Assembly (NCBI GenBank): GCA_964453775.1
Contig: CAYVSF010000002.1
Coordinates: forward strand, 1-27,281
DNA: 27,281 nt
Source of the DNA: an uncultured Bacteroidales bacterium
Lineage (GTDB): Bacteria > Bacteroidota > Bacteroidia > Bacteroidales > UBA12077
Reading direction: 5' to 3'
Positions 1-21,677 of this stretch are shown here, in pieces (position 1 is the stretch's first letter; each line of letters begins with the position of its first letter). A program made the position numbers and the translations under genes. Below the pieces are notes generated by a model that saw only the letters and a program-made list of their open reading frames with translations, was not told the DNA's origin and made no database searches.

Positions 1-801
1 CCAGAAGGGAATATTTTCCATTTCCAGGTCCTGGTACAGCATGGGAACGACACAAATCGGAAAATCTCCGGCAATGCCGCCGCCAATCTGGAAGAAACCC
101 ACGCCTTTTCCTGTGGAATTGTTGGTATACCATTCGGCCAGCCACATCATATATTCAATCCCCGACTTCATGATGTTTGGCTCCAGTTCTTTTTTAATAC
201 AGTAGGAAGCAAAAATATTGCCCATGGTGCTGTCTTCCCACCCGGGAACAACAATGGGAATGTTTTTTTCGGCTGCGGCCACCATCCAGCTGTCTTTTGG
301 GTCAATTTGGTAGAATTGCTCCAGCTTTCCCGAGCGAATAAGCTGGTACATGTATTCATGCGGGAAGAAGCGTTTTTTTGATTTTTGGGCCTCCTGCCAA
401 ATATCAAATATGGGTTTTTGAATTCTTCGAAAAGCCTCTTCTTCCGGGATGCATGTGTCGGTTACGCGGTTCAGTCCGCGATCCAGCAGATCGCGTTCCT
501 GCTGTGGTGTCAAATCGCGGTATTGGGGCACCCGTTCGTAGTGCTTGTGTGCCACCAGATTCATGATGTCTTCTTCCAGGTTGGCTCCGGTGCAGGAGAT
601 GATGTGTACTTTGTCGGCACGGATCATCTCTGCCAGGCTCTTCCCCATTTCGGCAGTGCTAATAGCCCCGGCCAGGGTTACCATCATTTTCCCGTCATCA
701 TTGATGAATTGTTCATACCCAATAGCGGCCTCTTTCAACGCAGCCGCATTGAAATGGCTGAAATGCCGGTTGATGAATTGTGATATACTGTTTCTTTGCA
801 T
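1..801 (-). CDS. Deoxyhypusine synthase-like protein (probable SpeY-type homospermidine synthase), 3'-truncated by the window edge
   Basis: Not in the ORF track. Manual translation from ATG at 801 gives 267 codons without a stop: MQRNSISQFINRHFSHFNAAALKEAA...MVTLAGAISTAEMG...IISCTGANLEED...GLNRVTDTCIPEEE...VVPGWEDSTMGN...GFFQIGGGIAGDF. These are DHS NAD-binding motifs. The gene starts 13 bp after the agmatinase stop. Confidence 0.92.
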   Translation of the reverse strand, partial: MQRNSISQFINRHFSHFNAAALKEAAIGYEQFINDDGKMMVTLAGAISTAEMGKSLAEMIRADKVHIISCTGANLEEDIMNLVAHKHYERVPQYRDLTPQQERDLLDRGLNRVTDTCIPEEEAFRRIQKPIFDIWQEAQKSKKRFFPHEYMYQLIRSGKLEQFYQIDPKDSWMVAAAEKNIPIVVPGWEDSTMGNIFASYCIKKELEPNIMKSGIEYMMWLAEWYTNNSTGKGVGFFQIGGGIAGDFPICVVPMLYQDLEMENIPFW

Positions 802-814
802 TTTTATGGGATTA

Positions 815-1678
815 TTAAAAGGTAAAAGGTCTTTCATTGTAGCTGGCAATATAACTGAGCAACTTATAATAGAGCTTGGCAGCCATAAAATCAGAAGCTT
901 TGGACGCTTCATTGGGGCAAAGCTCCATCATATCAAAGCCTACTATCTTGCGTTGTTGAGCTACCATCTTCAGGTATTTTAAGGTGGGGTACCATTCCAG
1001 TCCGCCCGGCTCCGGAGTTCCGGTTGCCGGCAAAATGGAAGGATCAAAGGCGTCCAAATCAATAGTGATGTAAACTTCTTTTCCCATCTGATCAATGGAT
1101 TGTTGCATCCACTCGTCCTTATCCCAAATATCATTGGCAAAATACACCTTTTTATCGTCCATGTGTTGCTTTTCTTGCGCATCCATACTTCGGATGCCTA
1201 CCTGTAAAAGATTGGTGGTTTTGGAAGCTTCGAACAGGGCACAGGCATGATTGTTGGCAGAACCTTCATATTCGGGACGCAAATCGGCATGTGCATCCAG
1301 TTGAAGTACTGTTAAATCCGGAAAATGCTGCTTGTAGGCACGGATGCTTCCGATGCTTACCGAATGCTCCCCGCCAAAAAGGCTCACAAATTTCCTGTTT
1401 CCCAGGTGGTACGAAACGGCCTTGTGGACTTCGGCCACCATGCTTTCGGGGGAACGATTCTCCCGGATAAACGGAGCCAGGAAGATGCCCTCTTTGTACA
1501 CTTCGCTATCGGTTTCGATGTCATACAGCTCCATGTTTTCAGCTGCCTCCAGGAAAGCCTTTGGCCCTTTATTCGCACCTTTTATCCAGGTGCTCGTGCC
1601 ATCGTAGGGCACGGGCAGGAGTACAATCTTTGCCTCTGCTTCATGAGCGTATTTATCATCTATTCCTGCAAAATTCAT
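815..1678 (-). CDS. speB: Agmatinase (ureohydrolase family)
   Basis: Motifs PYDGTSTW..GA..GP, GGEHS, LDAHADLR and DLDAFDPS..PATGTPEPGG carry the binuclear Mn ligands. The gene lies in an operon with arginine decarboxylase. Confidence 0.93.
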   Translation of the reverse strand: MNFAGIDDKYAHEAEAKIVLLPVPYDGTSTWIKGANKGPKAFLEAAENMELYDIETDSEVYKEGIFLAPFIRENRSPESMVAEVHKAVSYHLGNRKFVSLFGGEHSVSIGSIRAYKQHFPDLTVLQLDAHADLRPEYEGSANNHACALFEASKTTNLLQVGIRSMDAQEKQHMDDKKVYFANDIWDKDEWMQQSIDQMGKEVYITIDLDAFDPSILPATGTPEPGGLEWYPTLKYLKMVAQQRKIVGFDMMELCPNEASKASDFMAAKLYYKLLSYIASYNERPFTF

Positions 1679-3234
1679 GATGATTCTTTTTTAGAGGATG
1701 CAATTTCCGATTCAATTTTCCGGTACAAATCTTTGCGCCTGTCTTTCAGGTTGTTGACACTACCGGTAGTATGCAATTCTTTGAGAAGATCCAGATTCAC
1801 ATCAACCATTAGCGTCATTTCTGTATTGGGTGTTGCCTCGGAAACCACCCCGGAAATAGGGAATGAGAAATCGGCCGGTGAAAAAACAGCCGACTGGGCA
1901 TACTGGATATCCATATTGGCCACCCTTGGCAGGTTTCCTACAGAACCGGCAATGGCCACGTAGCATTCATTTTCAATGGCCCTGGCCTGGGCGCAGTTCC
2001 GCACGCGGAAATAGCCGTTTTGCGTATCGGTAAGGAAAGGGACAAAGATCATCTGTACGCCTTGTTCGGCATACAACCTTGAAAGCTCGGGAAATTCAAC
2101 ATCATAGCAAATAAGTATCCCTATTTTCCCGCAATCGGTATCGAATGCCTTTAGTTCTTCTCCGGCTGTTACTCCCCAACTGGAGACTTCGTTGGCAGTA
2201 ATATGAATTTTCTTAAACCATTCCCAGCTGCCATCCCTGCGGCAGAGATAGCTGATGTTGTAGAGCTTTTCATCTTCAACAATCGGCATGGTTCCGGTGA
2301 TGATATTTACGTTGTAAGCGATGGCAAATTCAATAAATTTATCCCTGAAGTAGTTGGTGTGATGGGCCAGCATTCGCATGGCTTCGTTCTCATCCAGGTG
2401 GTTGTATTTTTCCATCAGGGGAGCGTTAAAAAACTCCGGAAAAAGGATAAAGTCGCTTTGGTAGTTGCTTACCGAATTTACAAAGAATTCTACCTGGTTG
2501 ATCAACTCCTGTTCTGATGAAACATTTCGCATTTGCCACTGGATAAGTCCAATGCGCACCACAGACTTTTTACGGTTGATCAGTTTTTCACTTTCATCGT
2601 AATAAATATTGTTCCATTCAATTAAGGTGGCATACTCCTTTGATTCGATATCGGTGGGGAGATAGCCTTTGAGGATTTTTTTCACATGAAAGTCATTACT
2701 GAGTTGGAAAGTAAGAATAGGATCGATAATTTCTTTCAGTTTTACTTTCTCGATGTATTGTTTGGGTGTTAATTCATGCGCATAATCGGCATACAAAGGG
2801 ATGCGTCCTCCAGCAATTATGGCGCGCAGGTTGAGGTTTTCACACAGTTCTTTGCGTGCATCATACAGCCTTCGACCCAATCGCATCTCCCGATATTCGG
2901 GATGAACAAACAAGTCGATTCCATAGAGCACATCACCGTTGGAATCATTGGTGTTGAAAGTTTCATTTTCTGTAATTTCCGCATAAGTGTGCTTGTCGCC
3001 ATATTCTTCATAATCGACAATGAGGGCCAGTGCAAACCCCACCACTTTGTCGTTTACGACTACACAAATTTGGCCTTCCGGAAAAATTTCCAGCAGATCC
3101 CGGATATGATTTTTTTCCCATACCGGCTCAGGAATGCCTGCATAGGCTGTGCTCATAGCTTCTTTCAGATCCTGGTAGTCCTTTAGCCTTAAATTACGCA
3201 GTTCAATGATATTTTCCTGTCCCTTAGTTTCCAT
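1675..3234 (-). CDS. Bifunctional GNAT N-acyltransferase / carbon-nitrogen hydrolase (nitrilase superfamily), YhcX-like
   Basis: N-terminal GNAT motif A (LFVHPEYREMRLGRRL). C-terminal nitrilase triad Glu (FPEFF), Lys (FKKIH), Cys (ICYDVEFPE), plus RAIENECYV. Its stop overlaps the speB start (ATGA, 1675-1678). Confidence 0.9.
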   Translation of the reverse strand: METKGQENIIELRNLRLKDYQDLKEAMSTAYAGIPEPVWEKNHIRDLLEIFPEGQICVVVNDKVVGFALALIVDYEEYGDKHTYAEITENETFNTNDSNGDVLYGIDLFVHPEYREMRLGRRLYDARKELCENLNLRAIIAGGRIPLYADYAHELTPKQYIEKVKLKEIIDPILTFQLSNDFHVKKILKGYLPTDIESKEYATLIEWNNIYYDESEKLINRKKSVVRIGLIQWQMRNVSSEQELINQVEFFVNSVSNYQSDFILFPEFFNAPLMEKYNHLDENEAMRMLAHHTNYFRDKFIEFAIAYNVNIITGTMPIVEDEKLYNISYLCRRDGSWEWFKKIHITANEVSSWGVTAGEELKAFDTDCGKIGILICYDVEFPELSRLYAEQGVQMIFVPFLTDTQNGYFRVRNCAQARAIENECYVAIAGSVGNLPRVANMDIQYAQSAVFSPADFSFPISGVVSEATPNTEMTLMVDVNLDLLKELHTTGSVNNLKDRRKDLYRKIESEIASSKKESS

Positions 3235-3236
3235 AA

Positions 3237-4634
3237 TTATGTGTTATATCCCAGAATAGGAAGCATGTCTTCTGGTGTTTGTTCATCCTGGAACAATTGT
3301 ATCGTTAATTTTCCGGTTTGGTTTCTGTCCAGAATAACGTGTTTGGGGGCAGGAATCAGGCAATGCTGCAATCCACCGTATCCCCCGAGCGTTTCCTGGT
3401 AAGCACCTGTATGGAAGAAGCCAATGTACAAAGTTTCATTTTCAGCTGCTTTCGGGAGGTATATGGCGTTGGCATGCTGCTCGGAATTGTAGTAATCGTC
3501 GCTGTCGCATGTTAGACCTCCCAAGAAGACTCTCTCGTAGTTGTTTTGCCAGAGATTCAGGGGCAAGAGGATAAAGCGCTTGTTAATTGCCCAGGAGTCT
3601 GGCAATGTAGTCATAAACGAGCTGTCAATCATGTTCCAAAGCTCGCGATCGTTTTGCTTTTTTTGGCCCAGTACCGAATAGATCATAGCACCGCTTTCGC
3701 CTACTGTAAAGGAGCCAAATTCTGAAAAAAGATGCGGTTCTGGAAGATCATTGGTTTCGCAGAATATTTTTGTTTGGGTTACGATTTCTTCCACCATGTA
3801 GGCATAATCATAATCGAAGGAAAGTGAGTTCTTCACAGGGAAGCCACCTCCGATGTTCAGGGAATCGAGATCCTTGCTTGCTTTTTTAAGTTCCCCGTAA
3901 ACATTCAAACATTTTATCAATTCGCTCCAGTAGTAGGAATTGTCCTTAATGCCGGTATTGATGAAAAAATGCAGCATTTTTAGCCGGAATTTTGGGTTGT
4001 CCTTTATTCGTTTCCTGTAAAAGGGAACGATGTCTTTGTAACCAATGCCCAACCTGGAAGTATAAAATTCAAATTTAGGTTCTTCTTCAGAGGCAATGCG
4101 GATTCCTACATTTACCGTTTTATGAACTTTTTCTTCCAGTTGATCCAACTCGCTGATGTTATCAATGACCGGGATTACGTTTTCGAATCCGTTGTTGATG
4201 ATTCGGGCAATGTTATCGATATATGCTTCGCGCTTAAACCCGTTGCAAATGATATAGGTTTGTTTGGTGATTTTTCCTTCCACGTAAAGTTTCTCTACAA
4301 TATTGATATCAAAGGCAGAGGAGGTTTCGATGTGGATGTCATTTTTCAATGCCTCGTGCATAACATGCTTAAAGTGGCTGCTTTTTGTACAATAGCAATA
4401 GGTGTAAGTGCCTTTATAGTCCACTTTTTTCATGGCCCCGGAAAACCATTTTTTTGCCCTTTTTATTTGGGAAGATATTTTGGGTAGGTAGGTTAGCCTA
4501 AGCGGGGTACCATATTCATGAATAATGTCCATAAGAGGAATTTCATGAAAAAGTAAATTGTTCCCGTCAAGAGTAAATTCTTCTTGTGGGAAATCAAAAG
4601 TTTGCTCAACTAAGTCAATGTATTTTATCTTCAT
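3237..4634 (-). CDS. speA: Arginine decarboxylase, short alanine-racemase-fold (fold III PLP) form
   Basis: PLP lysine in YCTKSS, plus LNIGGGFP, EFGSFTV, GLTCDSDDYY (catalytic Cys) and FHTGAYQ. 465 aa. The arginine substrate is inferred from the co-transcribed agmatinase. Confidence 0.85.
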   Translation of the reverse strand: MKIKYIDLVEQTFDFPQEEFTLDGNNLLFHEIPLMDIIHEYGTPLRLTYLPKISSQIKRAKKWFSGAMKKVDYKGTYTYCYCTKSSHFKHVMHEALKNDIHIETSSAFDINIVEKLYVEGKITKQTYIICNGFKREAYIDNIARIINNGFENVIPVIDNISELDQLEEKVHKTVNVGIRIASEEEPKFEFYTSRLGIGYKDIVPFYRKRIKDNPKFRLKMLHFFINTGIKDNSYYWSELIKCLNVYGELKKASKDLDSLNIGGGFPVKNSLSFDYDYAYMVEEIVTQTKIFCETNDLPEPHLFSEFGSFTVGESGAMIYSVLGQKKQNDRELWNMIDSSFMTTLPDSWAINKRFILLPLNLWQNNYERVFLGGLTCDSDDYYNSEQHANAIYLPKAAENETLYIGFFHTGAYQETLGGYGGLQHCLIPAPKHVILDRNQTGKLTIQLFQDEQTPEDMLPILGYNT

Positions 4635-4805
4635 CTCCCTTGTAAGTTATTATAAAAAATGAACCGGCTAAAAGTAATTATTTTTCGAATTTGAGCTACC
4701 TCCTGGCAGAAAAAAATCAGAAAAAACATAGGGTTGTATCATTCATAAATTCAACCAGATAGTTGCTATGGTTTTCATATACATAAAATACACTATTTCT
4801 GGCAG

Positions 4806-4839
4806 AAAAAAAAAGCTGCATTCTAAAAAAAGCAGCTTT
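4806..4839 (-). terminator. Intrinsic terminator of the HU-SPOR gene
   Basis: Inverted repeat AAAGCTGC (4812-4819) / GCAGCTTT (4832-4839) followed by a T-run on the minus strand, 20 bp after the stop at 4860. Confidence 0.75.
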
Positions 4840-4859
4840 ATTTAGGAGTGGAATTTATT

Positions 4860-13352: not shown

Positions 13353-13426
13353 TGGCTGTCCGACTAGGATTCGAACCTAGACTGTATGGACCAAAACCAT
13401 AAGTGCTGCCATTACACCATCGGACA
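13353..13426 (-). tRNA. tRNA-Gln (anticodon TTG), CCA encoded
   Basis: TGTCCGA TG GTGTAATGGCAGCAC T TATGG-TTTTGGT-CCATA CAGT CTAGG-TTCGAAT-CCTAG TCGGACA G CCA folds into a full cloverleaf. U1-A72 and G73 are typical of tRNA-Gln. Confidence 0.97.
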
Positions 13427-13502: not shown

Positions 13503-15062
13503 TTACTTCTCAGCTTCTTCCGCCATGACACCCTCTTCGGTCATCACCAGGGAATTGTCGTAAATCGATGAAAATGAAGTGTTAGAATTTCTTCGCATGT
13601 AATTGATGAGTTCCTTCATGCTTTTGTCCACATATATTTTTTGATTTTCGGGGATGTAAACTCTGATGGTTACTTCTGGCATCTTCCATTTTATGTCCCT
13701 GTCCAGGTAATAGTAAGGGTCAAAGATGATGAGGCTGTCCTTTACGACCAGCTGATATTGAATGGCCTCCAGGGTTTTTGTTGCCTCCACTGAAGTTGCC
13801 CCTCTACCCCCTTTTTCAATTTCGATATGGGTATTTTCATTATCACCCGGATAGATATAAACCCTTGGATGCTGGTATACATTATTCTCCATGTCTAATT
13901 TTAGATCCAACTCTTCATCAAAGAGATATAGGGTGCTCATGTCATCCAACTCTGTTTCGGCTGTTTTTAAATACAAGCTTTGATCTTTTTCAATATTTAC
14001 ATCCATTTTTTCTTTGTCACCGGCTTTAATCATATAATCTTTCGCCTCAATAAAGATAGTAGCTGCAAGAATCAGAAGACTAAAAATCCAGGCGATAAGG
14101 CCAACAATCGCAAGTGCCCGGTCGTTTGATTTAAAGTTAAGCACCAGTTTTAATCCGCCATAGAGAATAGCAACAACAGGAATAAGTACCACGAAAACAG
14201 CACTTACAGGAATAATAACAGCACTATACGGATTCACAAAAAGTTCAAAAATTCCAGGGGATAAGATTTCCCCGGATGAAAAGAAGTGAGTTGCCGTGAA
14301 GGGTTCGCTAAACACAAATAAACCCGTAAAGGTGATAAGCATACCTAAGCCTGAAATAATCAGTGCTATACCTAGAATGACTAGAATAAACTTGACAAAA
14401 AACTTAAGGACTTCACCCACCCCCTGGAAAAAACGATAAAAGAAATCATTGGCCTGTTTTACTTCCGTACTGTCTTTAAGCTTCGATAGATTTTGTTTTA
14501 CTTCCCGGTATTCTTTTTTCACATTATTCTGAATATCAGATATATGGTTTGCTTTTCCCTTCATCTGCATTTTTTCTTTGCTACTGATAGCAGGGGGAAT
14601 AAATATCCATAAAATCAGGTAAATAATTGCTGCTGAAAAATAGAGAAAGGTAAACAGGATAAAAAGAAAGCGAATAATGCCCACTTCTAAATTCAGGTAG
14701 TGAGACAGTCCGGAACAAACGCCGCCAAAGATGCGTGTTTCTGTATCTCGGAACAGCTTTTTGTTATGTTTTTCTTCATTCGTATCGTCCTCCTCATATT
14801 CTTCCGAAATTTCTCCGGGTTTTCCCATTGTTTCAATTATTTTTTCGATATCTTCAAGGCTTACAACTTGTTTTTTTTCTGATATTTTGGTTTCCATCCA
14901 TTCGGCTATCCTGTTTTCAATGTCCTGGATGATTTCATCTGAAGCTTCCTCCTTTGAAAAATATTCAGAAAGTTGCCCCAAATATTGGTTCAGCTTTTCA
15001 TACGCATCTTCATCAATATGAAAAACCTGGCCACCGATGTTCATTTTGATTGTTTTCTTCAT
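13503..15062 (-). CDS. Long PspC domain protein (N-terminal HAAS-like helical domain, PspC, multi-TM, extracytoplasmic C-terminal domain)
   Basis: Start moved to 15062 (MKKTIKMNIGG...) because the ORF-track extension overlaps padR. PspC motif KLFRDTETRIFGGVCSGL...IYLILWIFIP. Confidence 0.87.
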   Translation of the reverse strand: MKKTIKMNIGGQVFHIDEDAYEKLNQYLGQLSEYFSKEEASDEIIQDIENRIAEWMETKISEKKQVVSLEDIEKIIETMGKPGEISEEYEEDDTNEEKHNKKLFRDTETRIFGGVCSGLSHYLNLEVGIIRFLFILFTFLYFSAAIIYLILWIFIPPAISSKEKMQMKGKANHISDIQNNVKKEYREVKQNLSKLKDSTEVKQANDFFYRFFQGVGEVLKFFVKFILVILGIALIISGLGMLITFTGLFVFSEPFTATHFFSSGEILSPGIFELFVNPYSAVIIPVSAVFVVLIPVVAILYGGLKLVLNFKSNDRALAIVGLIAWIFSLLILAATIFIEAKDYMIKAGDKEKMDVNIEKDQSLYLKTAETELDDMSTLYLFDEELDLKLDMENNVYQHPRVYIYPGDNENTHIEIEKGGRGATSVEATKTLEAIQYQLVVKDSLIIFDPYYYLDRDIKWKMPEVTIRVYIPENQKIYVDKSMKELINYMRRNSNTSFSSIYDNSLVMTEEGVMAEEAEK

Positions 15063-15099
15063 TATATCCGGATTTTTAATCAGTGATTCGCTGATTGAT

Positions 15100-15441
15100 T
15101 TACTGTTTTTTGCTTTGGTTTTCCTGAATGCTATTAACTGCATGCACCAGCTCTTCCCATGATTTATCCAATTCCTGCAGAAACTCACCTCCCTTTTCCG
15201 TTAAACTGTAGTATTTTCTTGGAGGGCCTTGGGTTGATTCTTCCCAGCGGTATTTTAACAGTCCGGCGTTTTTTTGTCTGGTAAGCAAAGGATAAAGTGT
15301 GCCTTCCACAACAATTAGTCGGGCTTCTTTAAGCTTGTTGATAATATCGGAGGCATAGTAGTCTTGGTGCTTAAGCAGTCCTAAAATGCAGTATTCCAGG
15401 ATTCCTTTTTTCATTTGTGCTTTCGTATTTTCTGGATTCAT
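15100..15441 (-). CDS. PadR family transcriptional regulator
   Basis: AQMKKGILEYCIL...YASDII..L...VEGTLYPLLTR...WEESTQGPPRKYYSLT.KG is the canonical Bacteroidota PadR pattern. Confidence 0.93.
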   Translation of the reverse strand: MNPENTKAQMKKGILEYCILGLLKHQDYYASDIINKLKEARLIVVEGTLYPLLTRQKNAGLLKYRWEESTQGPPRKYYSLTEKGGEFLQELDKSWEELVHAVNSIQENQSKKQ

Positions 15442-15458: not shown

Positions 15459-16058
15459 TTAGAAATTCATTTTTTTTCTCACATCCTCAAATTCATTCTT
15501 AATGGATTTAACGATATTGTCAATGTTTACCGGTTCTCCTTGCATTTCAAGTTTTTGGGCGGTAGTTGTTGCTTCCGGAATTACCATCCAAAGAATAAGA
15601 TAGAGAATCAACCCTGTACCCATGAATAAGATGAGCAAGGCAAATAGTATTCTAAAAACCAATGGGTCGGTTTTAAAATAGGCACCTAAACCGGCACACA
15701 CACCTCCAAAAATCCTTCTTTCCGTATCCCGGTAAAGTCTTTTACTGGCCTGTTTCTGCTTTTTTTGCTTTCCCCGATCAGTGTTTTCCTCCTCTTCGGG
15801 TGCAAAATCCTCAGGTTCACCTAAAATTTTCATTACAGCTTTGATGTCTTCTATTGTAATTACTTGTTTCTGATGATCCACCCTTTCCAAAAATAGTTCT
15901 GCTATCCTGCTTTCAATATCGGCCATTATTTCTTTCTTTTCGGTTTCATTGATGAATTCTTTTTCAATGGAACCCAGATAAGCCTGCAACATTTCAAAAG
16001 CAGATAAATCGGTATCGAAAACCATTCCACCAAGATTTACAGATATTGCTTTCTCCAT
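15459..16058 (-). CDS. Short PspC domain protein (HAAS-like + PspC)
   Basis: ATG at 16058 (the ORF track uses TTG at 16067). Contains RLYRDTERRIFGGVCAGL...LYLILWMVIP and is collinear with the N-terminus of the long paralog. Confidence 0.87.
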   Translation of the reverse strand: MEKAISVNLGGMVFDTDLSAFEMLQAYLGSIEKEFINETEKKEIMADIESRIAELFLERVDHQKQVITIEDIKAVMKILGEPEDFAPEEEENTDRGKQKKQKQASKRLYRDTERRIFGGVCAGLGAYFKTDPLVFRILFALLILFMGTGLILYLILWMVIPEATTTAQKLEMQGEPVNIDNIVKSIKNEFEDVRKKMNF

Positions 16059-16088
16059 AATAATCAATTTATATAATACTTATTAATG

Positions 16089-16221: not shown

Positions 16222-17025
16222 ATGGCTAAAAAATTTAGGGGACATCTTAAAAAAATGATAGCAAAACCAGAAAACCCTGTGGTTTATGAACAGGAGTGGG
16301 ATGGGGATGATTTTATTTGGAATGATTTACTGGGACAGGAGATCAGGATGCAATTTCTTGAAGAAATTAGATGCATTCGCTGTGGAAGGATTACTCGTAA
16401 ATCCTATCATCAGGGTTATTGCTATCCCTGCTATAAAACTGCTCCGCAAACCGCAGATTGTATTTTACATCCCGAACGGTGTATGGCCCACAAAGGCATT
16501 GCAAGGGATTTGGAATGGTCGGAGAAGAATTGCCTGCAAGATCATTTTGTTTATCTTACCCAAACCAGCAATATTAAGGTTGGCGTAACCCGGGGGAGTC
16601 AGGTGCCCACAAGATGGTTGGATCAAGGTGCGGTTGCTGCAGTTCGAATAGCAAAACTGCCCAACAGAAACCGAGCAGGTGAGCTGGAGGTTGCGCTTAA
16701 AAAATATATCGCCGATAAAACCAACTGGAGAAATATGTTAAAGGAAACTCCAATTGAAGAGAAGCTTCTGGAGGCAGAGAGGAAAAATATACTTCCGAAG
16801 ATTTCCAAAGATTTCAGCGATTACCTAATAGAAGACGATACCATTCAGCACTTTAATTATCCGGTAGAGAAATACCCTGAAAAAGTAAAGCCGATTAATC
16901 TGGAAAAAGATAAGCAGATGAAAGCGAAGCTTATGGGCATTAAAGGCCAATATTTGATTTTTGATGAAGGTTTAGTACTTAATGTCAGAAGACACAATGG
17001 TTATCTGGTAGAAATTGAGGTTTAA
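16222..17025 (+). CDS. DUF2797-like protein (Cys-rich)
   Basis: CIRCG...QGYCYPC...CILHPERC...VYL...KVGVTR..QVPTRWLDQGA...KLMGIKGQYLIF is the DUF2797 pattern, recognised from memory. Confidence 0.8.
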   Translation: MAKKFRGHLKKMIAKPENPVVYEQEWDGDDFIWNDLLGQEIRMQFLEEIRCIRCGRITRKSYHQGYCYPCYKTAPQTADCILHPERCMAHKGIARDLEWSEKNCLQDHFVYLTQTSNIKVGVTRGSQVPTRWLDQGAVAAVRIAKLPNRNRAGELEVALKKYIADKTNWRNMLKETPIEEKLLEAERKNILPKISKDFSDYLIEDDTIQHFNYPVEKYPEKVKPINLEKDKQMKAKLMGIKGQYLIFDEGLVLNVRRHNGYLVEIEV

Positions 17026-20000
17026 TCCTCATTTCTATTGTCTTTTATCGCTTTGTTTAATTCTTCCTGGATATTTTCCAGCTGTTTTTTCTTTTTTACT
17101 TCCCTTAGCTTTTGGGCTGTGGTAGTAAAATAATGATGTCCTTTAATAAAGTTACTCTGATGATCGTTCCACTCCTCAAGGTTTTTTATTTTACCTCTTT
17201 CATGCATTTCTTTATAAAGATTTACAGAAACGGGCACGAAATCGGCACGTCCCAGGTAATCCAGATCTGCATCACACATTATTTCTTCCAGAAGGTTTTG
17301 GGGGTTAGGCGGCATTCTGGTAGCCATAATTAATGCAGTAATTTTTTCTATTTGTTCTTGGTTATAATGGTATCTTGGCAGGATTTTTTGAGCCATTTTA
17401 GCGCTTTCTTCTTCATGGGTATCATAATCAACAATATGCCCCATGTCATGAAAAAGGGCAGCAGTTTTGAGCAACAGCATATCTTCATCCGATATTTTTT
17501 CTGATCTTCCTATAAGTTCCACTTGTGTTACCACATCAATGGTATGCTTTACACTGTGATAGTATAAATTATCAGGCAGACCGTTTTCGAGCTTGCTCAA
17601 TACATATTCTTCGATATCATTTAAGCGAAGAAGTTGCAGCTGAGTGAAGAAAGAATCATTTGGGTATAATCCTTTTATATCGGAAGCCATTTCTGGCATA
17701 AAGCTTTCTACGAAATACATATCAATTTCTCCTTTATATTTTACCGGCATTTTACCCCGGTATTTACAAATGAAAAAATCTTTAATGAGCATATAGGTGT
17801 TTTCCGTAATATTTATTTTTCCGGGCTCACCGGAGGCTTCCATACGACTTGCTGTGTTTACTGTTCCGCCCCATATATCGTAAGAAATTTTACTTCTTCC
17901 AAGAACACCTGCAACCACGGGGCCTGTGTCTATCCCAATTCTTAAATCCCAAATTTTTTGTTTTCCATCACCCGATTCATGCTTTAGCGATTTCATGTAA
18001 TTTTGCATTTCCATCGCTGCTAGCACGACTTCTACCGGGTTGGTTCTGTTTTTTTCCGGAATACCACCAGCACACATGTATGCATCGCCAATTGTTTTTA
18101 TTTTTTCTATATTGTATTTTTCTACTACCTCATCGAATTTAAGGAAGAATTTGTCCAGTTCATCAATTAAATGCTCCGAGTCCAGCTGTTCTGATATTTT
18201 AGTAAATCCCTGTATGTCACTAAATAACACAGTAACCATGTTGTAATGATAGGGCCCTGCCCGTTTGCCTGATTTTAGTTCTTTGGCAGTGGTTTTCGGG
18301 AGTACCCGTTCAAGAAGGCGGTCGGCTTTCTCTTTTTGTAGAACAACTTCTTCGGTACGTTCGTTTATGATATTTTCCAGGCGAAACTTTTCTTTAGCAA
18401 AATAATAAGAGCGCCATTTTAGTAACAGAAAAATTAAAGCACCTATTACGGCAATATATATAAAGTACGCTACCGGATTCCTATACAAAGGAGGTTTTAT
18501 TCGAAATGAAAAGCTTTGTGTTGGACTTACTGTATCGTATATATTTTTTGCGCGAAGGTGTAGGGTGTAATTTCCTTCTCTAAGATTCGCAAAGCTTACA
18601 GCGTTTTGGTTGGTCCAATCTGACCAGGAATCTTCAAGACCTTCCAGTTTAGTTTGGAATCTTACAAGGTCTTCATTTTGGAACCCTTTTGCAGAATACG
18701 AAAATGCAACCTGGTTAAAATCATAGTTGAAGATAAATGATTTATTTGCATTTATTTGCGGTTGAGTTAGGCCGTTATAAAGTAGAGAATCTTTTCCAAT
18801 CGTAATTTGATTAAAGGCTACTTCACAAGGATGTGACATGGAAGGGTGATTGCTATCAAACCGGATTAAACCTTCAAATCCGCCAACCCATATTATTCCG
18901 GTAGTATCTGTATGGATTGAGTTTACAAACAGCTGGTCTAATTTATTGAATGATAGTATTTGATGTGATTCTTGCTCTGTTGTATCATATCTGTGAACGT
19001 AAACGTTTTTTCTACCCTTATCCAGGTTATGCTCTGTTAACCAAATATCTCCTTTTTCATCTTCGATGATTGGGAAAAACCAGGATTGATTAGCTTTGGA
19101 TTCCGGTTTCAACTCTTTGTCAGGATAAAACAAGTTTTTATCATGATCGTAGTGAAATAAGCCGAGGTTTGTTGAAAAAAACAGCCCCGATGATGTATTG
19201 TATAGTCTTACCCATTCCACTTCACCATATGTCTGAAGGGCTTTTTTGTAATCATATGTGTGTACTTTCATGTCGGGCCTGTAGGTTTCGAAAGCAGGAA
19301 TCATATAGAGTTTCGAAAACTTCCCCGACAACCAAATATTCCCATTATTATCTTCTGTAATGCTATTGATACCTTCCTTTATTTGTTCCATCTTTTTTTG
19401 GTGAATAAGCAATCCACCTTCAAGTCGAACGATTTGCAAGCCATCGTTTCGGCCCAGGAATAATAACTTTCCGTAGTTTTTACTATGATAGGCTGTTATA
19501 ATATCTCCAATTTCACGGTTGTAAAAAAGTGAGGATTTAAGATCACGGATACGATAACTACCGGTGCTGGTAACAACAAATAATTGATTATTGTAATGGA
19601 AAAAATAGTAGGATGGCATTCTTAAATGGCTTATCTGTTGAAAGGTATTGCAATTTTCACAAGGTAGTTTTTCCCGAGAATGGTTTAGTCCGTATACACC
19701 CTGGCTGGTAGCAATGTATATGTAATTCCTGTCCGAAATAATACTGTTGATGTTCCCTTCCAGCCCATGATTTTCATCGAAGTAACTAAAAGGGGAGGTG
19801 ATTTCTATTCTACTTATTCCATGATTATGGGCAGCCCACAGATTTGATTCATTATCTGTAAATAGATGATTGATTTGGGTGTCATACAATCCATCCTGTC
19901 TGTTGATGATTTGTTGTAAATTACCTGTTTCAGAGAGGATCAGGATGCCTGAATACTGTGTTCCCAGGGCAATTTTATTCCCTGCAATATTAACAGCACA

Positions 20001-20756
20001 TGTAATGTTGTCTCCTTTTAATAGATCCTTTTTGTTGAATTTTACAGGTCTTAACCCTCTATTCTCAATAAAGTAAAGACTATTATCTGCGGTAATTACC
20101 ATCATTTTTTCGGGTAAAGATAAAATGGCCGTAATTTTTCGGTTTTCAAAGAACATACCGGCTTTTATCGGAGAGATGTTATTCCTGTTTATCTGAAACA
20201 AGCCAATATTTTTTTTATGAAGTAAAACTCTGTTCTTTGTTGAGAAGAGTTGCATTCCTTCACCCTCGTCGATTAAAACGGCATGAGAATTCAACTGGTA
20301 ATAAAGTTTGTTATCAGCAATAAAATAGATGTTTTCATTGCCGGCAATAATTTGTTGAATCGTTTCAATGGAGATTGAAAGGGAGTCTTGGATTTCTTTC
20401 AAATAAGGTTCATTCAGGGCGTTGTAAGCCAAAACACCAATGCAGTTATGAGCTCCAATAATAGTTTGGTTTTCAGAGATGGCGCTATAAACCCGCCCAT
20501 TCGTTTTTATTCTTTTCCATTTGAACCCATTGTATAATAAAAGTCCATTGGTGTTTTCTACAATTAAAAGTCCTTCTGGAGATTGACGAATGGCAAAATT
20601 ATTGGATTCCGTTCCATAATTAGGAACAATAATTTTCTGAATATAAGGGCTCCCGGAAAAGCTCAGAGCGTTTTCTTTTTGGGCAGAAATTGCCAGAGAA
20701 AATAAGAAAACAGAAAAAAACAACGTAAAACTTCGAAAAAATCTGTTAAAATTCAT
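17022..20756 (-). CDS. Membrane-anchored class III adenylate cyclase with periplasmic beta-propeller/Y_Y_Y sensor and C-terminal HD domain
   Basis: Start moved to 20756 (signal peptide MNFNRFF...LAISA-Q). Propeller repeats, Y_Y_Y (FQTKLEGLEDSWS...GNYTLHLRAKN) and one TM helix. Cyclase motifs VLFSDIQGFT, EKIKTIGDAYM, RIGIDTGPVVAG, YDIWGGTVNTASRME. HD motifs YHSVKHT, FHDMGH, HEEES, CDADLDYLG. Confidence 0.92.
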   Translation of the reverse strand: MNFNRFFRSFTLFFSVFLFSLAISAQKENALSFSGSPYIQKIIVPNYGTESNNFAIRQSPEGLLIVENTNGLLLYNGFKWKRIKTNGRVYSAISENQTIIGAHNCIGVLAYNALNEPYLKEIQDSLSISIETIQQIIAGNENIYFIADNKLYYQLNSHAVLIDEGEGMQLFSTKNRVLLHKKNIGLFQINRNNISPIKAGMFFENRKITAILSLPEKMMVITADNSLYFIENRGLRPVKFNKKDLLKGDNITCAVNIAGNKIALGTQYSGILILSETGNLQQIINRQDGLYDTQINHLFTDNESNLWAAHNHGISRIEITSPFSYFDENHGLEGNINSIISDRNYIYIATSQGVYGLNHSREKLPCENCNTFQQISHLRMPSYYFFHYNNQLFVVTSTGSYRIRDLKSSLFYNREIGDIITAYHSKNYGKLLFLGRNDGLQIVRLEGGLLIHQKKMEQIKEGINSITEDNNGNIWLSGKFSKLYMIPAFETYRPDMKVHTYDYKKALQTYGEVEWVRLYNTSSGLFFSTNLGLFHYDHDKNLFYPDKELKPESKANQSWFFPIIEDEKGDIWLTEHNLDKGRKNVYVHRYDTTEQESHQILSFNKLDQLFVNSIHTDTTGIIWVGGFEGLIRFDSNHPSMSHPCEVAFNQITIGKDSLLYNGLTQPQINANKSFIFNYDFNQVAFSYSAKGFQNEDLVRFQTKLEGLEDSWSDWTNQNAVSFANLREGNYTLHLRAKNIYDTVSPTQSFSFRIKPPLYRNPVAYFIYIAVIGALIFLLLKWRSYYFAKEKFRLENIINERTEEVVLQKEKADRLLERVLPKTTAKELKSGKRAGPYHYNMVTVLFSDIQGFTKISEQLDSEHLIDELDKFFLKFDEVVEKYNIEKIKTIGDAYMCAGGIPEKNRTNPVEVVLAAMEMQNYMKSLKHESGDGKQKIWDLRIGIDTGPVVAGVLGRSKISYDIWGGTVNTASRMEASGEPGKINITENTYMLIKDFFICKYRGKMPVKYKGEIDMYFVESFMPEMASDIKGLYPNDSFFTQLQLLRLNDIEEYVLSKLENGLPDNLYYHSVKHTIDVVTQVELIGRSEKISDEDMLLLKTAALFHDMGHIVDYDTHEEESAKMAQKILPRYHYNQEQIEKITALIMATRMPPNPQNLLEEIMCDADLDYLGRADFVPVSVNLYKEMHERGKIKNLEEWNDHQSNFIKGHHYFTTTAQKLREVKKKKQLENIQEELNKAIKDNRNED

Positions 20757-20846
20757 ATCTTGGCCTTTGGGAGGAATGTTGCATCTTGAAATATAATAAA
20801 TTATTTTTATTCCTCGTTGGTTTAAAAGAATAAAATATTTCCGGTT

Positions 20847-21677
20847 ATGGAAGATCACCACGAAACAATTTTGGTTCCCTGGGATTTTACTCCAGTTGCT
20901 GAGTGTGCATTGGAACATGCGTTCCGTATGGCAAAGAAGATAGATTGTAAAAGTATTACCTTGCTGCATATTATTAAGAAAAGCAGGGAATATGACGATG
21001 CCCATAAACGCTTGACACTTATGGCTGGAGATTTTTCGGGGAAGAATGGAGTAAAGGTAGAAGTTGAAGTAAGTGTAGGCAGTATTTTTACAACCATCGC
21101 AGAAAAGGCTGATGAATTAAAAGCCAGTCTTGTTATTATGGGGACGCATGGAATTAAAGGTATGCAAAAACTTACCGGAAGCTGGGCCCTTAAAGTAATT
21201 GTGAGTTCAAAAGTCCCATTTGTTGTTGTTCAGGAACCACCTCACGAGAATGATATGGAGAAGGTGATTTTCCCGGTAGATTTTAAACGGGAAAACAAAG
21301 AAATTTTGAACTGGGTAAGCTACCTTTCTCATTTTTATAAATTAAAGTTCTATATCATAAAGCCCAACACTACTGATTTAGGTTTTATAAAAAGAATTAA
21401 AGGAAATATTGCATTTGCACGGCGGTTTTTAGATAGCAAGAATATTGATTACGAAATTCATGCCGCAGATGGCAAAAAAAGTTTTGCCGTAGAAACGATA
21501 GAGTATGCGCGGGAAATTCATGCGGATATGATTATTGTGATGTCAACGAAGAATATTGGTTTGGCTGATTATGTCATTGGTGCCTCTGAGCAATACATAA
21601 TTGCCAATGCTGCTAAGATTCCTGTGATGGTGATTAATCCCCGTGAAGATTTGACACGGTTTGGATCATTCGGATAG
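20847..21677 (+). CDS. Universal stress protein with two USP domains
   Basis: TILVPWDFT..AECALEHA, LVIMGTHG..G...GS, SKVPFVVV, then a second domain (VIFPVDF...IPVMVI). Confidence 0.9.
   Translation: MEDHHETILVPWDFTPVAECALEHAFRMAKKIDCKSITLLHIIKKSREYDDAHKRLTLMAGDFSGKNGVKVEVEVSVGSIFTTIAEKADELKASLVIMGTHGIKGMQKLTGSWALKVIVSSKVPFVVVQEPPHENDMEKVIFPVDFKRENKEILNWVSYLSHFYKLKFYIIKPNTTDLGFIKRIKGNIAFARRFLDSKNIDYEIHAADGKKSFAVETIEYAREIHADMIIVMSTKNIGLADYVIGASEQYIIANAAKIPVMVINPREDLTRFGSFG

What the first reader, a model, noticed from the sequence alone, without database searches (positions are those of the whole stretch)
1675..3234. GNAT-nitrilase fusion wedged into the polyamine operon: candidate polyamine acylation/deacylation enzyme
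Seen: the fusion lies 2 bp after the speA stop and overlaps the speB start (ATGA), so it appears translationally coupled inside the pathway. Both the acyl-CoA motif and the Glu-Lys-Cys triad are intact. Known: I know of no established function for YhcX-like GNAT-nitrilase fusions. The nitrilase-family polyamine enzyme AguB is unnecessary when agmatinase is present. Inference: one polypeptide may both acylate and deacylate agmatine, putrescine or homospermidine (buffering or storage), or may produce a novel N-acyl-polyamine. That would assign a function to a widespread orphan family.
Basis: partly seen in the sequence, partly recalled or inferred. Interest (0 to 1): 0.72.

Follow-up and report, generated by a model that had tools for sequence, protein, structure and literature searches.

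The report
Orphan GNAT-amidase gene inside homospermidine operon
A widespread, highly conserved two-domain enzyme of unknown function (acyl-CoA transferase-like domain plus nitrilase-type amidase) sits inside a Bacteroidota homospermidine operon; it lies next to arginine decarboxylase in only a few lineages, so a polyamine role is testable but unproven.

Summary
A 519-aa ORF (1675-3234, minus strand) has an N-terminal GNAT domain and a C-terminal nitrilase-superfamily amidase. It starts 2 nt after the speA-like stop, overlaps the speB-like start (ATGA), and a deoxyhypusine-synthase homologue (SpeY) follows.

The amidase tetrad (E267, K342, E349, C376) is invariant in about 160 orthologues. The GNAT domain is closest to the CurA/malonyl-CoA-decarboxylase subfamily but lacks its Thr/His dyad. 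Its CoA loop is near-canonical, not intact.

The family is very large and 59-70% identical across phyla. It is normally a solitary gene. Only 4 of 160 surveyed loci have polyamine genes within 10 kb, and no neighbour is conserved family-wide.

Even so, adjacency to arginine decarboxylase recurs in about five different arrangements, including a gammaproteobacterium with a canonical SpeA. That is more than chance would give.

The surrounding operon matches the recently described agmatine to bis(guanidino)homospermidine to homospermidine route. Putrescine is therefore probably not an intermediate.

Best guess (about 0.35): an acyl-amide-forming and -cleaving enzyme acting on an arginine-derived cationic amine. 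Nearly as likely: an unrelated housekeeping amidase captured by local rearrangement. Interest is moderate.

The parts
1675..3234 (-). 519-aa GNAT / carbon-nitrogen hydrolase fusion protein (the finding)
   Evidence: ORF. Pfam PF00583 and PF00795. More than 8000 homologues; the best 120 are 65-97% identical and carry the same two Pfam domains.
2611..3213 (-). N-terminal GNAT domain (residues 8-208) of the CurA / malonyl-CoA-decarboxylase subfamily type
   Evidence: phmmer against PDB: CurA GNAT_L 2ree E=4.6e-10 over residues 8-208, and 7ucl/7uci E=9e-10. The CurA decarboxylase dyad Thr355/His389 aligns to Gly143/Gln177, which are conserved in 159 and 162 of 162 orthologues.
2869..2892 (-). CoA-pyrophosphate loop (motif A) codons R115-R122: REMRLGRR
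   Evidence: Read from the translation. Distant fusions P0145 and P0205 carry canonical QGKGVS / RGRGVA at the same columns.
1720..2565 (-). C-terminal nitrilase-superfamily amidase domain (residues 224-505)
   Evidence: Best solved relatives are mouse Nit2 2w1v (E=8.9e-18) and yeast Nit3 1f89. Foldseek of the AF2 model returns the same set with no discrimination among amidase branches.
2107..2109 (-). Catalytic Cys376 codon (gca on the + strand = TGC). The other tetrad codons are E267 at 2434-2436, K342 at 2209-2211 and E349 at 2188-2190.
   Evidence: Sequence. Conservation.
3237..4634 (-). Short (465 aa) alanine-racemase-fold arginine decarboxylase (speA-like), first gene of the operon
   Evidence: PF02784. 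Best NCBIfam match is biosynthetic ADC, in two stretches and below the equivalog cut-off, as expected for the short 'ancestral' form lacking the helical bundle (PMC13625781).
815..1678 (-). Arginase-family ureohydrolase (speB-like), probably a diagmatine (G44G) ureohydrolase
   Evidence: TIGR01230 216 bits, above cut-off 174.3. The W. algicola SpeB from the same cluster type acts on G44G and not on agmatine (PMC13625781). The substrate here is inferred.
1..801 (-). Deoxyhypusine-synthase homologue (SpeY-like), truncated by the window edge (267 aa seen)
   Evidence: Translation. PF01916 100.7 bits. The full-length 324-aa orthologue sits in the same position in L081.
4635..4859 (-). Intergenic region upstream of speA. 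It holds a terminator-like hairpin plus T-run of the preceding HU/SPOR gene (4839-4805) and is the only available promoter space for the four-gene unit.
   Evidence: Sequence. No comparable gaps between the four genes. The promoter itself was not identified.

Best explanation
The gene encodes a member of a very widespread, strongly conserved family of self-contained two-domain enzymes. One domain is an acyl-CoA-binding GNAT domain of the CurA/MCD structural subtype that has lost the decarboxylase dyad, so it is an acyl-transferase or an acyl-CoA sensor. The other is a catalytically complete Cys-nucleophile amidase of the Nit/omega-amidase type.

My best reading is that the family makes and/or cleaves an N-acyl (or N-carbamoyl) amide on a cationic amine derived from arginine decarboxylation: agmatine, bis(guanidino)homospermidine, or the final polyamine. 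It would then act as a polyamine-pool buffering or salvage enzyme, in the manner of SpeG plus a deacylase, or of glutathionylspermidine synthetase/amidase.

In most genomes it is expressed on its own. In this lineage it has been moved from a position beside the operon into it, between the decarboxylase and the ureohydrolase, so it is co-transcribed with homospermidine synthesis.

Shown: domain identities, intact amidase tetrad, operon geometry, recurrence of adjacency to arginine decarboxylase. Inferred: the substrate class, the direction of each half-reaction, and that the two domains act on the same molecule.
For: (1) Operon embedding with a 2-nt gap and a 4-nt overlap, with no internal spacer. 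The same insertion is found in an 82%-identical relative (L081).

(2) Adjacency to arginine decarboxylase recurs in different arrangements:
- Divergent from speA-speB-DS in a tight clade (L082-86, L166, L169).
- Divergent from a short ADC alone, with arginine deiminase family, DDAH-like and ArgRS genes 1.5-6 kb away on the other side (L137).
- After speA-speB-speY, separated only by an inserted Xre/RES toxin-antitoxin pair (L072 Aequorivita).
- Immediately upstream of a canonical long SpeA with helical bundle, plus SpeB, in Colwellia (L030).

(3) The nearest relatives of L137, L072 and L030 (about 74-82% identical) lack the linkage, so these are separate rearrangements. That gives 5-6 linked lineages among 48-70. 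My estimate of the chance expectation is about 0.2 linked lineages, assuming 1-2 ADC genes among about 3500 genes and a window of three genes either side.

(4) ADC is the only functionally specific family that recurs as an immediate neighbour in several lineages.

(5) The amidase tetrad is invariant and the GNAT loop residues R118, R121 and R122 are invariant, so both domains are under selection.

(6) At Cys+4 the family has an invariant Glu380 where Nit2 and Nit3 have Arg (alignments). An invariant Asp403 lies in the loop that in MtCPA carries the amine-binding Glu187. This is compatible with a cationic rather than an anionic substrate.

(7) Precedent: nitrilase-type NCPAH homologues are encoded with some SpeY clusters. 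AIH converts G44G to bis(carbamoyl)homospermidine there, and the final NCPAH step is implied rather than assayed (PMC13625781).
Against: - 156 of 160 surveyed orthologous loci have no polyamine gene within 10 kb.
- Close relatives P0010 and P0012 (68-70% identical) are unlinked.
- In the tight clade nearest the window, the fusion heads a string of unrelated housekeeping genes (purM-like, prfA, pyrF, rpsO, pnp). There the adjacency may simply be inherited synteny, and the window arrangement a local reshuffle.
- The amidase domain scores far below the cut-offs of every named equivalog, including AguB.
- Neither sequence nor fold search discriminates between omega-amidase, carbamoylase and NCPAH.
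- The residue aligned to MtCPA Glu187 is Gln405, not an acid.
- The GNAT domain lacks both the CurA dyad and the canonical Tyr at that position, and its first motif-A Gly is Arg, so acyl transfer itself is unproven.
- The window copy carries H96N at a 99%-conserved His.
- No experiment on any family member addresses polyamines.
Confidence: 0.35

Rival explanations
1. Hitch-hiker. The enzyme is a housekeeping amidase/acyltransferase unrelated to polyamines, for example a metabolite-repair enzyme of the Nit1/Nit2 kind acting on an omega-amide or N-substituted dicarboxylate monoamide. It reached its place in the operon by a local rearrangement from an adjacent position, and co-transcription is neutral.
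For: - The family is solitary in more than 95% of loci and has no conserved partner.
- Identity of 59-70% across Bacteroidota, Gammaproteobacteria, Ignavibacteria, Verrucomicrobia, Planctomycetes and Leptospiraceae suggests a universal small-molecule substrate.
- The best solved relatives are Nit2 and Nit3.
- In the clade nearest the window, the gene sits beside the operon at the head of an unrelated housekeeping gene string.
Against: - Independent ADC adjacency in L137, L072 and L030, whose nearest relatives are unlinked, is hard to get by chance.
- The Arg that Nit2 and Nit3 carry at Cys+4 is an invariant Glu here.
- All Nit1, Nit2-like and dGSH amidase models score far below their cut-offs.
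- This reading gives no role to the conserved GNAT domain.
Confidence: 0.3
2. Decarbamoylase. The amidase domain removes N-carbamoyl groups from amines, an NCPAH-like chemistry. The substrates would be N-carbamoyl-putrescine or -homospermidine, or amines carbamoylated by cyanate derived from the urea that the ureohydrolase releases. The GNAT domain would be regulatory.
For: - Nitrilase-superfamily enzymes commonly hydrolyse ureido groups. AguB, D-carbamoylase and beta-ureidopropionase are all among the fold and sequence hits.
- SpeY pathways with an iminohydrolase branch produce bis(carbamoyl)homospermidine and encode NCPAH homologues (PMC13625781).
- The operon's ureohydrolase releases urea (inference).
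Against: - TIGR03381 scores 48.5 bits against a cut-off of 410.
- The MtCPA specificity residue Glu187 aligns to Gln405, and Trp159/Trp162 are replaced by Tyr377/Glu380.
- No agmatine iminohydrolase is in the window.
- It does not explain strong conservation of the GNAT CoA loop.
Confidence: 0.1
3. Protein-modifying enzyme. A RimI-like N-acetyltransferase is fused to an Nta1-like protein amidase acting on protein N-termini or side chains. My recollection, unverified here, is that Pace and Brenner suggested this for GNAT-fused nitrilase branches.
For: The architecture itself. High conservation and a lack of metabolic neighbours fit a housekeeping protein-modification role. The JGI automatic name for several members is 'ribosomal protein S18 acetylase RimI-like'.
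Against: - The GNAT domain's only significant solved relatives are the CurA/SxtA small-molecule decarboxylase subfamily, not RimI or Nat enzymes.
- There is no linkage to ribosomal or N-degron genes beyond chance.
- The review could not be retrieved to check the claim.
Confidence: 0.1

Closest known systems
NCBI-annotated 'bifunctional GNAT family N-acetyltransferase/carbon-nitrogen hydrolase family protein'
   Same: Same two-domain architecture and length. The window protein is 59-97% identical to hundreds of so-named proteins in Bacteroidota, Gammaproteobacteria and other phyla.
   Different: Nothing distinguishes the window protein from its orthologues except its operon position and a few substitutions (H96N, G116E, D253N). 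Identity to Bacillus YhcX itself could not be tested because no sequence was available. Distant fusion paralogues at 28-42% identity include forms without the catalytic Cys.
Nit2 / omega-amidase and yeast Nit3 (PDB 2w1v, 1f89)
   Same: Best sequence and fold match of the C-terminal domain. Same alpha-beta-beta-alpha fold and Glu-Lys-Glu-Cys tetrad.
   Different: Only 21-26% identity. Cys+4 is Glu instead of Arg, and the loop after the fifth strand reads PFxTDTQNG instead of PGAFNLTTG. An N-terminal GNAT domain is fused on.
N-carbamoylputrescine amidohydrolase (AguB/NCPAH, MtCPA 5h8i)
   Same: Nitrilase-superfamily enzyme of polyamine synthesis with the same triad. NCPAH homologues are encoded in the iminohydrolase variant of the SpeY clusters.
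   Different: 48.5 bits against a 410-bit cut-off. The specificity residues Trp159, Trp162 and Glu187 are not conserved.
CurA GNAT_L, SxtA decarboxylase domain and malonyl-CoA decarboxylase (the CurA GNAT subfamily)
   Same: End-to-end sequence similarity over about 200 residues, including the C-terminal extension (DPxLxF motif).
   Different: The essential Thr/Ser and His of that subfamily are Gly143 and Gln177 here, so it is not a decarboxylase of that type. It is fused to an amidase rather than to PKS modules.
ADC-SpeB-SpeY homospermidine gene cluster (Winogradskyella algicola type; Li et al. 2026, PMC13625781)
   Same: Short ancestral AR-fold ADC, arginase-family ureohydrolase and DHS homologue, in the same order, in a Bacteroidota genome. 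L072, from another Flavobacteriaceae genus (Aequorivita), has 64-69% identical proteins.
   Different: The published cluster has no GNAT or nitrilase gene (no mention in the paper). Here one is inserted between ADC and the ureohydrolase.
Glutathionylspermidine synthetase/amidase (E. coli Gss) and the SpeG/acetylpolyamine amidohydrolase pair (functional analogues, from my own knowledge)
   Same: Precedent for one polypeptide, or a pair, that both forms and cleaves an amide on a polyamine to buffer the free pool. The Gss amidase also uses a Cys nucleophile.
   Different: No homology. Gss is ATP-grasp plus CHAP, and APAH is HDAC-like. The analogy is mechanistic only and is untested here.

Membership tests
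Nitrilase (carbon-nitrogen hydrolase) superfamily | PF00795 match above the gathering score | tested here: met
   96.8 bits against 23.2, residues 228-487.
Nitrilase (carbon-nitrogen hydrolase) superfamily | Catalytic Glu-Lys-Cys triad plus second Glu | tested here: met
   E267, K342, E349, C376. Conserved in 159-162 of 162 orthologues. Aligned to the Nit2 triad.
N-carbamoylputrescine amidase (AguB, TIGR03381) | Equivalog HMM score above 410.25 bits | tested here: not met
   48.5 bits.
N-carbamoylputrescine amidase (AguB, TIGR03381) | Amine-binding Glu187 and hydrophobic channel Trp159/Trp162 (MtCPA numbering) | tested here: not met
   The aligned residues are Gln405, Tyr377 and Glu380. The mapping was done by hand from ungapped motifs.
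Deaminated-glutathione amidase (Nit1 type; NF033621, NF043013) | HMM score above the curated cut-off | tested here: not met
   43.7 against 355, and 53.1 against 500.
Omega-amidase (Nit2 type) | Close similarity to Nit2, including the Arg at Cys+4 | tested here: not met
   26% identity. The Arg is replaced by an invariant Glu380. That this Arg binds the substrate carboxylate is my recollection and was not verified.
GNAT superfamily | PF00583 match above the gathering score | tested here: met
   33.4 bits against 20.7.
GNAT superfamily | Motif A Q/R-x-x-G-x-G/A (CoA pyrophosphate loop) | tested here: inconclusive
   R-E-M-R-L-G in the window. Family consensus is [R/Q]-G-[L/M]-R-L-[G/A], with the first Gly always Arg. 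Distant fusions keep the canonical form. CoA binding was not tested.
CurA-type GNAT decarboxylases (CurA, SxtA, MCD) | Essential His and Ser/Thr dyad (CurA His389/Thr355) | tested here: not met
   They align to Gln177 and Gly143. Essentiality is stated in PMC3701320 and bioRxiv 2025.03.07.642089.
Bacillus YhcX orthologue group | Reciprocal similarity to B. subtilis YhcX | not tested
   No YhcX sequence was available. Cluster names for distant fusions give only generic labels.
ADC-SpeB(DUH)-SpeY homospermidine cluster | Co-linear ADC, arginase-family ureohydrolase and DHS homologue | tested here: met
   PF02784, TIGR01230 and PF01916, in that order on one strand. Compare PMC13625781.
ADC-SpeB(DUH)-SpeY homospermidine cluster | SpeY forms G44G, and the ureohydrolase acts on G44G and not on agmatine | not testable with these tools
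   These are biochemical properties, shown for W. algicola proteins. They are inferred here by cluster type.

The most novel reading that the evidence does not exclude
The whole GNAT-Nit fusion family, found in at least about 600 species-level genomes across several phyla, would be a self-contained acyl-amide cycle on agmatine or polyamines. The GNAT half would acylate the amine from an acyl-CoA, and the Cys-amidase half would release it again. This would be a previously unrecognised, widespread mechanism of polyamine-pool buffering, and in this lineage it would be wired directly into homospermidine synthesis.
Probability: 0.18. Interest if true: 0.7.

Novelty: new variant of a known kind. Interest (0 to 1): 0.42.

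Why it matters
The family is one of the larger uncharacterised two-domain enzyme families in bacteria. The only experimental literature found is indirect.

The operon-embedded copy, together with the four other ADC-adjacent arrangements, gives the first concrete and cheaply testable lead to a substrate class. It also adds a possible fourth component to the newly described agmatine-dependent homospermidine pathway.

If the link is false, the result is still useful. It shows that tight operon packing in Bacteroidota can arise by capture of a neighbouring housekeeping gene, and so should not be read as pathway membership.

Tried and rejected
1. Family-wide conserved neighbours. Clustering of 1186 ORFs from 80 loci found only Flavobacteriaceae synteny, such as SSB. 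Pfam censuses of the immediate upstream and downstream neighbours and of the second neighbours found nothing beyond that synteny and ADC.

2. Enolase-superfamily (MR_MLE) neighbours, as a hint of an N-succinyl-amino-acid racemase-type pathway. The five hits are MenC-like genes in one Prevotella clade, plus unrelated sugar-acid dehydratases and one DgcA-like gene. Rejected.

3. The overlapping AIRS-family gene downstream in the nearest clade. I judged it purM-like from its N-terminal sequence and Pfam AIRS hits, and it heads a housekeeping string (prfA, pyrF, rpsO, pnp). Not informative.

4. Arginine deiminase and DDAH-like genes near the fusion. Seen only in L137.

5. CurA-type malonyl-CoA decarboxylase function for the GNAT domain. 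Rejected because the dyad is absent.

6. Structure. The AF2 model is only moderate (pLDDT 73.8, pTM 0.54, with residues 183-221 poor). Foldseek did not discriminate among amidase branches.

7. Stand-alone amidase relatives at 38-48% identity. None reaches any NCBIfam equivalog cut-off.

8. Literature. Searches for the fused architecture returned nothing relevant. The Pace and Brenner review was not retrievable. The role of the Cys+4 Arg in Nit2 could not be verified.

9. Regulatory RNA or an internal promoter or terminator in the operon. None found.

10. Composition. No sign of foreign origin for the fusion relative to its neighbours.
Full report
**1. Observation**

The window carries four co-linear genes on the minus strand:
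- 3237-4634: a 465-aa PLP decarboxylase.
- 1675-3234: a 519-aa GNAT/carbon-nitrogen hydrolase fusion.
- 815-1678: a 287-aa arginase-family protein.
- From ATG 801 to the window edge: a deoxyhypusine-synthase homologue.

Pfam and NCBIfam confirm each assignment.
- TAA-tt-ATG between speA and the fusion.
- ATGA overlap between the fusion and speB.
- 13 nt between speB and the DHS homologue.

Upstream of speA lie a hairpin plus T-run that ends the preceding HU/SPOR gene, then a 225-nt spacer. Inside the unit there is no spacer, Rfam element or notable terminator. By geometry the fusion can only be expressed with the operon.

**2. The protein**

*Amidase half.* Residues about 224-505 are a nitrilase-superfamily amidase. 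The closest solved relatives are mouse Nit2 and yeast Nit3 at 21-26% identity. The tetrad E267/K342/E349/C376 is conserved in 159-162 of 162 aligned orthologues.

The domain belongs to no named equivalog:
- AguB: 48.5 bits against a cut-off of 410.
- dGSH amidase: 43.7 against 355.
- Archaeal nitrilase: 59 against 500.

Two conserved acidic residues stand out. Glu380 at Cys+4 replaces the Arg of Nit2 and Nit3. Asp403 lies in the loop that in plant NCPAH carries the amine-binding Glu187. The residue strictly aligned to Glu187, however, is Gln405. I read this as weakly favouring a cationic substrate. The role of the Nit2 Arg is from memory and could not be verified.

*GNAT half.* Residues 8-208 match end to end only the CurA/SxtA GNAT domains (E about 5e-10). 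This is the subfamily that includes malonyl-CoA decarboxylase. The His389/Thr355 dyad essential for that activity is Gln177/Gly143 here, conserved in 162 and 159 of 162 orthologues. A CurA-type decarboxylase is therefore excluded.

The CoA loop is [R/Q]-G-[L/M]-R-L-[G/A]-R-R in the family and REMRLGRR in the window. That is near-canonical, but the first Gly is always Arg. More distant fusions keep RGRGVA or QGKGVS.

The window copy also has Asn at His96, which is 99% conserved. A 97%-identical relative keeps the His.

The AF2 model is moderate (pLDDT 73.8) and added nothing decisive.

**3. The family**

- More than 8000 database proteins match. The best 120 are 65-97% identical and share the architecture.
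A metagenome scan behaved the same way.
- Orthologues at 59-69% identity occur in Bacteroidota of many orders, including Prevotella. They also occur in Gammaproteobacteria (Rheinheimera, Colwellia, Aestuariibacter, Nitrincola, Motilimonas, Francisella), Ignavibacteria, Verrucomicrobia, Planctomycetes and Leptospiraceae.
- At 50% clustering the orthologues collapse to essentially one cluster. Beyond it lie fusions at 28-42% identity, some without the catalytic Cys. There are also stand-alone amidases at 38-48% identity that reach no named family.
- The only experimental literature found concerns Bacillus yhcX mutants, with 24-50% lower IAA. No paper on the architecture was found.

'Widespread orphan family' is therefore fair.

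**4. Genomic context**

*The survey.* I searched 160 orthologous loci (80 genomic, 80 metagenomic; 95 of the 165 loci fetched by then had at least 5 kb on both sides) with the window's SpeA, SpeB and SpeY. Four had hits within 10 kb: L030, L072, L086 and L137. De novo clustering of neighbours found nothing shared family-wide. Pfam censuses of first and second neighbours gave the same result. The exceptions are Flavobacteriaceae synteny (SSB) and the decarboxylase family.

*The linkage that exists is not random.* It takes five arrangements:
- (a) speA > fusion > speB > speY: the window and an 82% relative.
- (b) Fusion divergent from speA-speB-DS: a tight clade, 86-100% identical among themselves and about 70% to the window.
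- (c) Fusion divergent from a short ADC alone: L137. Arginine deiminase family, DDAH-like and ArgRS genes lie a few kb away on the other side.
- (d) speA-speB-speY-[Xre/RES toxin-antitoxin]-fusion: Aequorivita.
- (e) Fusion > canonical long SpeA > SpeB: Colwellia hornerae.

The nearest relatives of (c), (d) and (e) lack the linkage. That gives 5-6 linked lineages among 48-70, of which the two nearest the window were found by directed look-ups. Assume 1-2 ADC genes among about 3500 genes and count three genes either side. I then expect about 0.2 linked lineages by chance. This is an estimate, not a computed null.

*Caveat.* In clade (b) the fusion heads a housekeeping string (purM-like, prfA, pyrF, DUF2851, rpsO, pnp). 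There the adjacency may be plain synteny, and the window arrangement may be a local capture of a neighbour.

**5. The operon**

A September 2026 paper (PMC13625781) shows three things:
- SpeY homologues, including that of the Bacteroidota species Winogradskyella algicola, couple two agmatines to N1,N9-bis(guanidino)homospermidine (G44G).
- The W. algicola cluster consists of an ancestral short AR-fold ADC, SpeB and SpeY.
- Its SpeB hydrolyses G44G and has no detectable activity on agmatine.

The window cluster is of this type. It has a 465-aa ADC without the helical bundle, and its proteins are 64-69% identical to those of another Flavobacteriaceae species (L072). The pathway here is therefore most likely arginine to agmatine to G44G to homospermidine. 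Putrescine should be dropped from the list of candidate substrates. The paper mentions no GNAT or nitrilase-fusion gene.

**6. Mechanism**

*Shown:*
- A complete Cys-amidase.
- A conserved CoA-type loop in a GNAT fold that is not a decarboxylase.
- Obligatory co-transcription with homospermidine genes in this lineage.
- Recurrent neighbourhood with ADC of two different forms.

*Inferred (confidence about 0.35):* the family forms and/or cleaves an N-acyl or N-carbamoyl amide on an arginine-derived cationic amine and so buffers or salvages the polyamine pool. Glutathionylspermidine synthetase/amidase is the mechanistic precedent for opposing activities in one chain.

*Rivals:*
- An unrelated housekeeping or repair amidase captured by rearrangement (0.30).
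- An NCPAH-like decarbamoylase with a regulatory GNAT domain (0.10).
- A protein N-terminal acetylase/amidase (0.10).

**7. Verdict**

The protein is an ordinary orthologue of a known but uncharacterised family. What is new is its insertion into a known type of homospermidine cluster, together with the recurrent but low-frequency association with arginine decarboxylase. Interest is moderate (0.42): it is a cheap, well-posed biochemical test rather than a demonstrated new function.

Noticed in passing
window 2947-2949 (-), codon 96 of the fusion: The window copy has Asn where 99% of 160 orthologues, and even 28-42% identical fusion paralogues, have His (motif T-H-D-P-x-G-D). The 97%-identical P0001 keeps His. 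This may be a strain polymorphism, a sequencing error, or an impaired GNAT half in this strain.
   Followed up: partly
L082-L086, L166, L169 versus window 1-801: The DS/SpeY gene at the end of the speA-speB-DS cluster in the clade nearest the window is only about 25% identical to the window's SpeY, while SpeA is 67-69% identical. Two very different DHS-family paralogues therefore occupy the same operon position in related Bacteroidota.
   Followed up: no
L072 9035-9981 (Aequorivita capsosiphonis): An Xre-antitoxin/RES-toxin pair is inserted between speY and the GNAT-Nit gene, all on one strand.
   Followed up: yes
alignment A1 (P0147, P0151, P0205, P0212, P0264): Distant full-length GNAT-Nit fusions (28-36% identity) have Gly or His in place of the catalytic Cys. 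Some have also lost the GNAT loop. These are probable pseudo-enzyme branches of the architecture.
   Followed up: no
window 17022-21005 (-) and 20847-21677 (+): The ORF encodes 1327 aa with Reg_prop/Y_Y_Y, adenylate/guanylate cyclase and HD domains. Its listed 5' end overlaps a universal-stress-protein gene on the other strand by 159 nt. The real start is probably the internal MNFNRFF... signal-peptide-like Met.
   Followed up: no
window 24731-26665 (-): A 644-aa protein with an N-terminal signal-like sequence, WD40 repeats and a C-terminal caspase (Peptidase_C14) domain.
   Followed up: no
window 13503-15188 (-) and 15459-16067 (-): Two neighbouring HAAS/PspC-domain membrane proteins. The longer one also has LiaI-LiaF-TM and toast-rack domains. 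A tRNA gene lies just downstream at 13356-13426 (-).
   Followed up: partly
L137 12974-17263: An arginine-centred neighbourhood in an unidentified metagenomic Bacteroidota contig: DDAH-like amidinotransferase, arginine-deiminase-family protein and arginyl-tRNA synthetase. They lie on one side of the GNAT-Nit gene and a short ADC lies on the other.
   Followed up: partly
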